Below, in pieces: positions 26,125 through 27,894 of a stretch of 56,474 nt of DNA. Each line of letters begins with the position of its first letter. Within the stretch, counting starts at the first letter, position 1. A program made the position numbers and the translations under genes. Source of the stretch: a virus (Duplodnaviria; Heunggongvirae; Uroviricota; Caudoviricetes); IMG/VR virus record IMGVR_UViG_2880372215_000005; one strand, given 5' to 3'. Under the pieces are notes generated by a model, which made no database searches, was not told where the DNA came from, and was given only the letters and a program-made list of their open reading frames with translations.

Positions 26125-26418
26125 TCAGCACGGAAACAGAAAACGGCAGCTCCCCTGAATCAGTTCTTCCCGCTCCGCAAGATCCGGATTCCGGTACAGC
26201 ATCCCGGTCAGTCGCATGGCAGCCCCCTTCATCCGGGTTAATGCCTCGCCCGGGATCAGTTCACCGTCCTCACGAATCACCTTATCCCGGCTGCCCTGAA
26301 TGTAGGCCAGCAGCACGGCGGTAGCCTGACGAACCTTGTCCATCAGCATGTCATCATCCGCGTCATGGTCGACACGCAGATGTGCCTTGATCTCTTCCAG
26401 TGTCAGTAATGCCGTCAT
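26125..26418 (-). CDS. gp6-like head-tail connector protein (copy B)
   Basis: MTALLTLEEIKAHLRVDHDADDDMLMDKVRQATAVLLAYIQGSRDKVIREDGELIPGEALTRMKGAAMRLTGMLYRNPDLA... Confidence 0.55.
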   Translation of the reverse strand: MTALLTLEEIKAHLRVDHDADDDMLMDKVRQATAVLLAYIQGSRDKVIREDGELIPGEALTRMKGAAMRLTGMLYRNPDLAEREELIQGSCRFLFPC

Positions 26419-27583
26419 TTTCAGCCTCCTGCATCCCGCCACGTTTTGCAGCCAGGGTCCAGGCTGATGAATGAGCTTCTCCGGGTTTATCTTCGGTCAT
26501 ACTGTTGCAGTGCCACAGCGAGCCCCCCCACGTCACCGTATCGCCGGGGTGGTAGGTTTCACCGGCTCTGAACACACCGCGGTAGAGCATCACCGGCAGG
26601 GAAAATGTTTTTTCCGTACGCTGGCCACTGCTCTGCCGGACCACCACAGAGAACAACCGCTCACCCGTCATGCTGACGTCAATATCCGCCACCCCGTCAA
26701 CCAGGCATTCCCATCCCCGCATCCCGTGCGTTTTTTCATACGCCCGCCAGAGTCCGCCCTGGTGTGTGGCATACGTGCCCCGGGGAAAGGATTTTTGATC
26801 GTCAATGGCGGGGAGTATTTCCAGTGCCGTGGCATCACGCCCGTCCTGCGGAGCCGGCAGGGCACTCACCGCATCCAGAACCGCCTTCTGCAGAACATCC
26901 GGATCGTAGTCACGACCATCACGCGGAACAGGAATATGGCTTACCGCCTCCTTCACCATCTGTTCAAGCATCGGACGCACATCATCCGGGGTGAGACTTT
27001 TACCGTCTGCCGGCTGCGGAATATTTGCGACCGCATCATTCACCGCCTTCTGCAGTACTTCCGGATCATAGTCACGACCGTCGCGCGGAACAGGGATATG
27101 GCTTACCGCCTCCTTCACCATCTGTTCAAGCATCGGACGCACATCATCCGGGGTGAGACTTTTACCGTCCGCCGGCTGCGGAATATTTGCGACCGCATCA
27201 TTCACCGCCTTCTGCAGTACTTCCGGATCGTAGTCACGACCATCACGCGGAACAGGGATATGGCTTACAGCCTCCTTCACCATCTGTTCAAGCATCGGAC
27301 GCACATCATCCGGGGTGAGACTTTTACCGTCCGCCGGCTGCGGAATATTTGCGACCGCATCATTCACCGCCTGCTGCAGTACATCCGGATCATAATCACG
27401 ACCATCACGCGGTACCGGAATGGCCCCCACAGCGTCATCCACCATCGCCTGCAGAACCGGACGCACCTCATCCACCGTCACATGCTTCTGTAATACCGCC
27501 GACAGGGAAGTCAGTTTCTCTTCAAACGCTTGTGCCTGCGAGGCCATCTTCCCCTCAAATGTGCGCTGTAAATCCGCCAGCAC
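26363..27583 (-). CDS. head-region protein with about four in-frame 54-aa tandem repeats (function unknown; decoration or scaffold-like candidate)
   Basis: 406-aa ORF; repeat VRPMLEQMVKEAVSHIPVPRDGRDYDPEVLQKAVNDAVANIPQPADGKSLTPDD encoded by a ~162-bp DNA repeat; the N-terminal ~18 codons seen in copy A are out of frame here. Confidence 0.55.
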   Translation of the reverse strand: MLADLQRTFEGKMASQAQAFEEKLTSLSAVLQKHVTVDEVRPVLQAMVDDAVGAIPVPRDGRDYDPDVLQQAVNDAVANIPQPADGKSLTPDDVRPMLEQMVKEAVSHIPVPRDGRDYDPEVLQKAVNDAVANIPQPADGKSLTPDDVRPMLEQMVKEAVSHIPVPRDGRDYDPEVLQKAVNDAVANIPQPADGKSLTPDDVRPMLEQMVKEAVSHIPVPRDGRDYDPDVLQKAVLDAVSALPAPQDGRDATALEILPAIDDQKSFPRGTYATHQGGLWRAYEKTHGMRGWECLVDGVADIDVSMTGERLFSVVVRQSSGQRTEKTFSLPVMLYRGVFRAGETYHPGDTVTWGGSLWHCNSMTEDKPGEAHSSAWTLAAKRGGMQEAENDGITDTGRDQGTSACRP

Positions 27584-27894
27584 TGTGGAAAATTCTTCCC
27601 CAGTGCACGAATAATGGACAGTTCCCGTTCCGTCATTTTCTCAGTATCCCCCTGAACATCGCTTTCACCGCATCATGCTCTGTTTCACTGATTGCCTTAT
27701 TACCGTCAGATGCGCCGTCAGGCAGCTGTGATGAAACTGTTTTCCCGGCAGACGCGAACGGATCCTCACGGGCATCACGACGGGACAGCGCCTCCAGACT
27801 GTAGTTCTGCTGCTGAAGATACAGTGCATCACCGCCGGCCAGGGGCGGCAGGTTCTCCGTTTACGGGCCTCATTGGGCGTGAGAAGCGTATTTT

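What the first reader, a model, noticed from the sequence alone, without database searches (positions are those of the whole stretch)
26363..27636. Head-module protein built from in-frame 54-aa (162-bp) tandem repeats
The 406-aa ORF contains about four near-identical copies of VRPMLEQMVKEAVSHIPVPRDGRDYDPEVLQKAVNDAVANIPQPADGKSLTPDD, each with two ~27-aa half-repeats carrying IPxPxDG. Near-perfect DNA repeats make this a likely variable-number locus. It lies between the portal and the gp6-like connector, where decoration or scaffold-like proteins occur. I do not recognise the family.
Basis: seen in the sequence. Interest (0 to 1): 0.6.

Follow-up and report, generated by a model that had tools for sequence, protein, structure and literature searches.

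The report
Repeat-rich accessory gene beside phage portal
The repeats are real and vary in number between relatives, but the 406-aa ORF is a frameshift-truncated piece of a known E. coli O157 prophage gene whose function has not been characterised.

Summary
The 162-bp in-frame repeats are real. TRF finds 3.3 copies at 95% identity, and there are four 54-aa units in all. Copy number varies from 3 to 7 among relatives.

The 406-aa ORF is not a complete gene. This stretch matches E. coli O157:H7 Sakai prophage Sp9 exactly, except for six single-base deletions. In Sp9 it is the C-terminal half of ECs_1795, an 859-aa "phage portal protein".

Comparison across about 80 proteobacterial species shows the repeat protein is normally a separate gene. 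It lies directly after a ~450-aa HK97-type portal, with overlapping stop and start codons, and before the gp6-like adaptor. It belongs to PHROG 1289, which is mislabelled "portal protein".

In E. coli a G5 or G6 tract decides the arrangement. G5 gives two genes, as in Sakai Sp10 and phage BP-4795. G6 gives one fused gene, as in Sp9 and phage 2851.

The protein has three parts:
- an N-terminal helix;
- a variable run of 27-aa helix-plus-linker half-repeats;
- a confidently modelled all-beta C-terminal domain that ends in a CBM5/12-like module.

My best guess is a low-copy fibre or adhesin at the portal vertex. An internal portal-bound head protein is the main rival. I found no functional literature. 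This is an ordinary, catalogued locus sitting in a badly assembled part of the window.

The parts
26421..28995 (-). Region equivalent to Sakai Sp9 ECs_1795, the 859-aa fused portal plus repeat protein. In the window it is broken by 1-nt deletions at about 27908, 27859, 27653, 27599 and 26441.
   Evidence: It is 99.8% identical to NC_002695.2 1785063-1788069, and the only differences are single-base deletions.
27895..28995 (-). N-terminal 366 aa of the HK97-family portal, ended early by the frameshift near 27908.
   Evidence: In the intact protein, Pfam PF04860 scores 3.7e-79 over aa 54-382, TIGR01537 scores 2.4e-108, and PDB portals 9lbn_H and 8cez_A match aa 41-420.
27648..27652 (-). G5 tract at the junction of the portal and repeat genes; it is G6 in Sakai Sp9. 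G5 gives two genes, with the portal ending RGILRK*. G6 gives one fused ORF.
   Evidence: Among IMG/VR loci, all 25 fused loci have G6. The split or partial loci comprise 37 with G5, 12 with a junction my pattern did not match, and 2 with G6 that carry further breaks. Sakai Sp10 and BP-4795 are split.
27633..27636 (-). ATGA overlap. TGA is the stop of the short portal in the G5 state. ATG (27636..27634) is the start of the repeat-protein gene (MTERELSIIRALG...).
   Evidence: The same arrangement is annotated in Sakai Sp10 (ECs_1974/ECs_1975), BP-4795 (ORF58/59) and PAJU2 (gp06/gp07).
26421..27636 (-). The repeat-protein gene proper, a member of PHROG 1289. In the window it carries frameshifts at about 27599 and 26441.
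26363..27583 (-). The 406-aa ORF of the finding. It has an internal GTG start and an out-of-frame last 24 residues, so its boundaries are artefacts.
27473..27636 (-). N-terminal region of about 55 aa. It looks helical and amphipathic by eye and recurs in similar form across the family. It is a candidate anchor or oligomerisation segment.
   Evidence: Sequences. This segment was not covered by the structure model, and the anchoring role is inferred.
26825..27472 (-). Four 162-bp (54-aa) tandem units, equal to eight 27-aa half-repeats. Each half-repeat is a 13-17-aa helix followed by an (I/L)PxPxDGxD linker.
   Evidence: helices H3-16, H29-41, H54-70 and H83-95, at pLDDT 54-68.
26421..26824 (-). 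C-terminal all-beta domain of about 132 aa plus a short RDAGG tail. Its last ~45 aa form a CBM5/12-like module.
26093..26418 (-). gp6-like head-tail adaptor (Ad1) gene, starting MTALLTLEEIK. It has one 1-nt deletion near 26156. The low coordinate is approximate.
19590..20114 (-). Second, more damaged copy of the same repeat array, inside the duplicated head module.
   Evidence: period 159, 3.3 copies, 4% indels.

Best explanation
Shown:
- The ORF is the 3' part of the portal/repeat-protein locus of an Sp9-type lambdoid prophage of E. coli O157:H7.
- The underlying gene belongs to a large family found mainly in Proteobacteria (PHROG 1289). It is encoded immediately after an HK97-type portal of about 450 aa and before the gp6-like adaptor. 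It is normally a separate gene whose start overlaps the portal stop.
- In part of the E. coli lineage, one extra G in a G5 tract fuses it to the portal C-terminus, giving the 859-aa ECs_1795.
- The protein has an N-terminal helix, a run of 27-aa helix-plus-linker half-repeats, and a well-folded beta domain ending in a CBM5/12-like module. The repeat run expands and contracts in 162-bp steps.

Inferred:
- It is a low-copy virion accessory protein. Its amount would be coupled to that of the portal.
- It forms a flexible fibre, probably trimeric.
- The N-terminal helix would anchor it at or near the portal vertex. The repeats would set its reach. The distal CBM-like domain would bind a polysaccharide on the host surface and aid adsorption.

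My confidence in the identity and architecture is about 0.9. My confidence in the fibre/adhesin function is about 0.4.
For: Identity:
- Searches show a 99.8% match to Sakai Sp9.
- One search gives phrog_2271 at 4e-260 (profile positions 474-855 of 859) and phrog_1289 at 1e-182.

Separate gene as the usual state:
- Of the top 149 representatives at 50% identity, 146 carry the C-terminal domain and only one carries a portal domain. The median length is 411 aa.
- In most of about 80 species the order is TerL, protease-capsid, portal, this gene, Ad1, with overlaps of 1-16 nt between the portal stop and this gene's start. Only two loci are fused.
- Sakai Sp10, BP-4795 and PAJU2 are split.
- pN/pS of the C-terminal domain is 0.21 in both split and fused alleles.

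Fusion switch:
- G6 goes with fused and G5 with split in IMG/VR loci.

Fibre-like architecture:
- models the helices, the linkers and a confident beta domain.
- Searches match CBM5/12 domains, tail-fibre or receptor-binding chains of Agrobacterium phages 7-7-1 and Milano, and collagen-repeat or CBM phage proteins.
- Several homologues carry GxY collagen-like C-terminal tails, with precomputed PF01391 hits.
- Repeat number ranges from 0 to 20 across the family and from 5 to 12 half-repeats within E. coli.
Against: - There is no direct evidence that the protein is in virions, or where.
- At least three lineages fuse it to the portal C-terminus (E. coli; L028/P0223; L059). From established portal structures (P22, SPP1, HK97), that end faces the capsid interior. 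The fused form is carried by phage 2851, which is deposited as a complete phage genome and which I recall as an infectious Stx2c phage. An external fibre would be trapped inside in these phages.
- The repeat region has low model confidence (pLDDT 54-68), and oligomeric state could not be modelled.
- The CBM_5_12 hit in the E. coli protein is below Pfam's threshold (21.0 against 26.2 bits).
Confidence: 0.5

Rival explanations
1. It is an internal, portal-bound minor head protein, analogous in position to SPP1 gp7 and the MuF family. It would enter the procapsid through the portal crown. It might be ejected with the DNA, and the CBM-like domain might then bind peptidoglycan.
For: - The gene always lies immediately after the portal gene, with overlapping stop and start, and ahead of the adaptor genes that act after packaging.
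- Fusions to the interior-facing portal C-terminus arose independently and are tolerated.
- The C-terminal domain is under the same purifying selection in fused alleles.
- A portal tail of about 50 aa that looks low-complexity would serve as the tether.
Against: - There is no sequence similarity to MuF/gp7.
- The domain layout and the structural matches are those of external fibre tips.
- The collagen-like tails seen in homologues suggest a fibre.
- With adjacent overlapping genes, a single frameshift easily produces an accidental fusion. Such fusions may simply be harmless in prophages.
Confidence: 0.3
2. It is a genuine C-terminal domain of the portal protein. On this view the fused 859-aa form is ancestral and functional, and split forms are pseudogenes, as some GenBank records annotate them.
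For: - RefSeq, PHROG and GenBank name it 'portal protein', and some split copies are annotated 'portal protein (pseudogene)'.
- The fused cluster has 6387 members.
Against: - Most of about 80 species have two genes with a regular start/stop overlap, and only two are fused. Only 1 of the top 149 representatives is fused.
- Pfam, TIGRFAM and solved portals cover only aa 41-420.
- Split alleles are under purifying selection, with pN/pS 0.21.
- Split forms occur in deposited phage genomes BP-4795 and PAJU2.
Confidence: 0.08
3. It is a scaffold or an abundant capsid decoration protein.
For: It occupies the slot just before the adaptor gene, where decoration genes often lie. It is helical and repeat-rich.
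Against: - The protease-capsid fusion appears to carry its own internal coiled-coil segment (sequence, judged by eye).
- The overlap with the low-copy portal gene argues for low abundance.
- Repeat number is unconstrained, ranging from 0 to 20.
Confidence: 0.08
4. It is not a real feature, and the repeats are an assembly artefact.
For: The surrounding 17-28 kb of the window is clearly mis-assembled or error-rich.
Against: The same repeats are present in Sakai and in more than a thousand complete E. coli genomes and 93 phage records. Only the ORF boundaries are artefacts.
Confidence: 0.02

Closest known systems
E. coli O157:H7 Sakai prophage Sp9 ECs_1795 ('phage portal protein', 859 aa). The equivalent in phage 2851 (gp59) has the same length and position and is about 97% identical in DNA.
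   Same: The DNA is identical to Sp9 apart from six 1-nt deletions. It has the same four 162-bp units and the same neighbours.
   Different: In the window the gene is split into several ORFs by the deletions. The G tract is G5 rather than G6.
Split form: Sakai Sp10 ECs_1974 plus ECs_1975, phage BP-4795 ORF58 plus ORF59, Pseudomonas phage PAJU2 gp06 plus gp07 (PHROG 1289)
   Same: The protein family is the same. The ATGA overlap with the portal stop is the same in the two E. coli-type cases, and the PAJU2 genes also overlap by 4 nt. The position before Ad1 is the same.
   Different: Repeat number differs. ECs_1975 is 407 aa, ORF59 is 461 aa and PAJU2 gp07 is 334 aa.
CBM5/12 chitin-binding modules (for example Serratia ChiB and Streptomyces ChiC CBD, 2d49), and the similar modules in phage tail-fibre or receptor-binding chains (Agrobacterium phages 7-7-1 and Milano)
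   Same: The last ~45 aa superpose at 1.2-3.1 Å and share the Y..GD.V.(W/Y).G..W motif.
   Different: Only this sub-module matches. The preceding ~85 aa of the beta domain have no clear solved counterpart. Sugar binding is untested.
phi29 head fibre gp8.5 and T4 fibritin (from my own knowledge; a lead, not a test)
   Same: All have an N-terminal anchor, a shaft built from repeated short helices separated by turns, and a distal folded domain. The known examples are dispensable accessory fibres that help adsorption.
   Different: There is no sequence or fold match. Trimer formation and virion location are unknown here.
SPP1 gp7 / Mu F minor head proteins (from my own knowledge)
   Same: The gene lies directly after the portal gene and is occasionally fused to it.
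   Different: There is no homology, and the domain content is entirely different.

Membership tests
HK97-family portal protein (Pfam PF04860 / TIGR01537) | Sequence match to the portal domain | tested here: not met
   The 406-aa ORF has no portal hit. In the fused 859-aa protein the portal models and solved portals cover only aa 41-420. The name 'portal protein' reaches the repeat protein only through the fusion.
PHROG 1289 / PHROG 2271 | Significant profile match over repeats and C-terminal domain | tested here: met
   phrog_2271 scores 4.4e-260 (profile positions 474-855 of 859) and phrog_1289 scores 1.1e-182. Diverse stand-alone homologues hit phrog_1289 from end to end.
PHROG 1289-type gene (as defined here by synteny) | Encoded directly after a ~450-aa HK97-type portal and before the Ad1 adaptor, with overlapping stop and start | tested here: met
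   The window has the ATGA overlap at 27633-27636 in the G5 state. The same layout is seen in most of the ~80 genome loci.
CBM5/12 carbohydrate-binding module | Pfam PF02839 above the gathering score | tested here: inconclusive
   The ORF scores 21.0 bits and the 859-aa Sakai protein 19.1 bits, both below the 26.2 cut-off. Homologue P0125 scores 29.8 bits, above the cut-off. Many homologues have precomputed PF02839 hits.
CBM5/12 carbohydrate-binding module | Fold match to solved CBM5/12 domains | tested here: met
CBM5/12 carbohydrate-binding module | Binds chitin or another polysaccharide | not testable with these tools
   This needs a binding assay.
Variable-number tandem repeat locus | Copy number differs among close relatives in whole-unit steps | tested here: met
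   Match lengths are 984, 1146, 1308, 1470 and 1632 nt. Phage records are 162 or 324 bp shorter. Proteins carry 3, 4 or 5 units.
Phage fibre / adhesin (head fibre or neck whisker type) | Oligomeric fibre exposed on the virion | not testable with these tools
   Only monomer models are available. I found no virion proteomics or EM.
SPP1 gp7 / MuF minor head protein (PF04233) | Sequence match to the MuF domain | tested here: not met
   No Pfam hit in the E. coli protein or in seven diverse homologues.
QatB (PF28083, defence system QatABCD) | Match to QatB models | tested here: not met
   The only sign is a 'faint' precomputed hit. PADLOC gave no match for three family members.

The most novel reading that the evidence does not exclude
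The G5/G6 tract may act as a slippage switch that toggles the accessory protein between a free form and a form covalently tethered to the portal C-terminus. Phage populations would then carry two virion architectures, and the 162-bp repeats would separately tune the protein's length. Supporting this, both states occur within one genome (Sakai Sp9 and Sp10), in deposited phage genomes, on haplotypes identical over 870 bp, and under equal purifying selection. Homopolymer errors in draft assemblies could equally explain the identical-haplotype pairs.
Probability: 0.1. Interest if true: 0.6.

Novelty: new member of a known kind. Interest (0 to 1): 0.3.

Why it matters
This instance is an already sequenced EHEC prophage gene, so little is new about it. 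The useful points are mainly for annotation.

- Thousands of database entries called "phage portal protein", "portal protein (pseudogene)" or "gp6-like connector, partial" are a distinct, conserved accessory gene with no known function. It occurs in a large group of HK97-like temperate phages, including the long-tailed Stx1, Stx2a and Stx2c phages in the collection searched here.
- If the protein is a glycan-binding fibre, it could affect the host range and adsorption of these phages.
- The repeat array and the G tract are easy sources of assembly and annotation errors in EHEC genomes.

Tried and rejected
- Pfam on the ORF gave only sub-threshold, repeat-driven hits (TetR_C_35, Glycos_trans_3N, FliG_N and others). 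I rejected these as noise.
- PDB sequence searches with the protein and with a profile of the C-terminal domain found only the portal part and 30-45-aa CBM-like stretches.
- The QatB hint was not reproduced in PADLOC. NCBIfam has no family for this protein.
- I considered a programmed ribosomal frameshift at the G tract. The reading register does not fit a standard X XXY YYZ slippery heptamer. Across the family the two genes simply overlap by 1-16 nt. I did not pursue it further.
- Seven literature searches found nothing on this protein. They covered portal plus repeats plus O157, phage 2851, VNTR, carbohydrate-binding downstream of portal, PAJU2 virion MS, ECs locus tags, and PDB entry 9LBN. 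The two PAJU2-related proteomics papers concern unrelated head modules.
- Haplotype clustering could not separate one origin of the fusion from several. G6 occurs in at least six clusters, but recombination and possible homopolymer errors in draft genomes confound the result.
- I did not use the second structure job. The tool returns no coordinates or PAE, so docking of the N-terminal helix onto the portal could not be read out.

Full report
**Observation**

The minus strand carries a 406-aa ORF at 26363..27583. Tandem Repeats Finder reports a 162-bp period with 3.3 copies and 95% matches at 26880..27412, score 982. In protein register there are four 54-aa units at 27472..26825, each made of two 27-aa half-repeats of the form D(D/P)xVxxxLxxxVxxAVxxIPxPxDGxD. 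DNA identity is 96.9% between units 2 and 3 and 83-85% between unit 1 and units 2 and 3. Unit 4 has diverged in its second half.

The ORF as a gene is not real. The 406-aa ORF begins at an internal GTG.

**Identity**

PHROGs place the ORF at profile positions 474-855 of an 859-position "portal protein" family (phrog_2271, 4e-260). It also matches a 331-position family, phrog_1289.

Megablast shows that window 26100..29100 is 99.8% identical to prophage Sp9 of E. coli O157:H7 Sakai and to many other O157 genomes. It is 96-97% identical to phage 2851 and to Stx1a- and Stx2c-converting phages. In Sakai the region is one 2580-bp gene, ECs_1795, "phage portal protein" of 859 aa. It lies between the protease-capsid fusion and the gp6-like adaptor.

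A base-by-base alignment finds no substitutions. It finds six single-base deletions in the window, five of them in G runs, at about 27908, 27859, 27653, 27599, 26441 and 26156. These break the portal gene into pieces, create the GTG-started ORF and put its last 24 residues out of frame. None of 5,426 complete E. coli genomes shares them.

**What belongs to the portal and what does not**

In the intact 859-aa protein, Pfam Phage_portal, TIGR01537 and the solved portals (9lbn, HK97 8cez, RcGTA 6tba) cover only aa 41-420. Next comes a tail of about 50 aa that looks low-complexity. The region from the Met near residue 454 (MTERELSIIRALGEEF...) to the end has no Pfam or NCBIfam family apart from a weak CBM_5_12 hit.

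**The repeat protein is normally a separate gene**

An exhaustive HMMER search of 1.84 billion representatives found 4,827 relatives at E<=1e-3 and 595 at E<=1e-30. Of the top 149, 146 carry the C-terminal domain and only one carries a portal domain. Their median length is 411 aa, and they carry 0-20 half-repeats.

I scanned one genome per species with a profile of the C-terminal domain. This returned 80 loci from Enterobacterales, Pseudomonas, Burkholderiales, Rhizobiales, Acidobacteriota and other groups. In most of them the order is TerL, protease-capsid, portal (about 450 aa), this gene (170-580 aa), Ad1, head closure, gp10-like, tail terminator. The gene's start overlaps the portal stop by 1-16 nt. 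Only two loci are fused: L028 (1243 aa) and L059 (729 aa).

Deposited phage genomes show the same two-gene layout: BP-4795 ORF58/ORF59 and Pseudomonas phage PAJU2 gp06/gp07. Sakai itself has both states. Sp9 is fused. Sp10 is split into ECs_1974 (454 aa) and ECs_1975 (407 aa).

**The fusion switch**

In E. coli the difference is one G.
- With G6 the portal reads through: ...FRGDTEKMTERE...
- With G5 the portal ends at RGILRK*, and its TGA overlaps the ATG of the next gene as ATGA.

Among 80 IMG/VR loci, all 25 fused loci have G6 and 37 split loci have G5. Another 12 split or partial loci have a junction my pattern did not match, and 2 G6 loci are otherwise broken. G6 occurs in at least six haplotype clusters. 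One cluster holds 17 G6 and 3 G5 alleles that differ at 0-2 of 870 flanking positions. This could reflect recurrent slippage, recombination, or homopolymer errors in draft genomes. I cannot separate these.

The C-terminal domain shows pN/pS of about 0.21 in split-only and in fused-only alleles alike. The split copies are therefore not decaying pseudogenes, although some GenBank records label them so.

The window has G5 at this site. Because the other five deletions are clearly disruptive and no other genome shares any of the six, I treat all six as errors of this assembly.

**Variable number**

Array lengths among close relatives are 984, 1146, 1308, 1470 and 1632 nt, which is 3-7 units. Half-repeat counts range from 5 to 12. 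Several phage records are exactly 162 or 324 bp shorter. Individual proteins show 3, 4 or 5 units.

**Structure**

I ran AlphaFold2 on units 3-4 plus the C-terminal domain, with 53 aligned sequences.
- Each half-repeat is a 13-17-aa helix followed by a linker of about 12 aa, at pLDDT 54-68.
- The C-terminal ~125 residues form an all-beta domain at pLDDT 93-97.

**Function (inferred)**

The overlap with the portal gene suggests a low-copy protein. The layout of anchor helix, length-variable helical spacer and distal CBM-like domain is that of an accessory fibre or adhesin. I therefore favour a fibre at the portal vertex or neck that binds a surface polysaccharide (about 0.4).

The main rival (about 0.3) is an internal, portal-bound minor head protein. 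The fusions attach it to the portal C-terminus, which faces the capsid interior in solved portals (my knowledge of P22, SPP1 and HK97). The fused form is also carried by phage 2851, which is deposited as a complete phage genome. Accidental fusion is easy for overlapping genes and may simply be harmless, so the fusions are not decisive.

A scaffold role or an abundant decoration role is unlikely. The capsid fusion appears to carry its own coiled-coil segment, and the overlap with the portal gene argues for low abundance.

I found no functional literature.

**Assembly context**

The window is unreliable between about 17 and 28 kb.
- It contains a 7.3-kb tandem duplication of the head module: 17373-24651 against 24651-31960, at 98.9% identity with 43 gap positions.
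- The second copy is about 38 nt shorter than its best genomic matches. Its repeat period is distorted to 159 bp.
- The flanks (1-17000 and 35000-56474) are 100.0% identical to O157 genomes, but to places about 172-176 kb apart.
- In the better copy, the six single-base deletions fall only within 26156-27908.

**Verdict**

The repeats are real and vary in number. The ORF is a truncated piece of a catalogued but uncharacterised gene that databases mislabel as portal. Interest is modest.

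Noticed in passing
window 17373-24651 vs 24651-31960: A 7.3-kb tandem direct duplication of the head module (3' half of terL through the 5' part of the major tail gene), at 98.9% identity with 43 gap positions. The junction at 24651 creates a hybrid ORF (24161..24952) that joins the major-tail N-terminus to the terminase C-terminus.
   Followed up: partly
window 1-17000 and 35000-56474: Both flanks are 100.0% identical to O157:H7 genomes, but to places about 172-176 kb apart and in the same orientation. Examples are CP017444 at 2725079-2742078 and 2918390-2939865, and EDL933 CP008957. The window therefore joins the tail end of one prophage (next to ompN) to the early region of another across their shared head modules. 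This is either a misassembly or a recombination event.
   Followed up: partly
window 26156-27908, and copy B 17000-24651: The single-base deletions are not spread evenly. There are six within 1.75 kb of copy A and none in the intact terL and protease-capsid genes next to it. Copy B is about 38 nt shorter than its best genomic matches (99.0% identity). This looks like a poor consensus where reads from several near-identical prophages were mixed.
   Followed up: partly
window 29205-31142 (-): A 645-aa fusion of prohead protease, a central segment that looks coiled-coil by eye, and an HK97-type major capsid protein. It lies before the portal gene rather than after it. This gene order is conserved in most of the ~80 related loci. 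In Burkholderiales, protease and capsid are separate ORFs.
   Followed up: partly
L001 (Sakai Sp9) vs L166 (Sakai Sp10); GenBank AP012530, AP012538, AP012540: One genome carries both the fused and the split form of the portal/repeat-protein locus. Several Stx2a phage records annotate the split form as 'portal protein (pseudogene)', which the comparative data contradict.
   Followed up: yes
L028 / P0223 (Candidatus Pantoea communis, ~1240 aa): An independent portal fusion. Here the half-repeats keep the 27-aa period but use LPxPEPLPDI linkers instead of IPxPxDGxD, and there are more than 20 copies.
   Followed up: no
alignment A1 (C-terminal domain, 46 sequences): Two cysteines (GWEC and WHC) and a histidine (H24) are nearly invariant in the beta domain. 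They could form a disulfide or a metal site.
   Followed up: no
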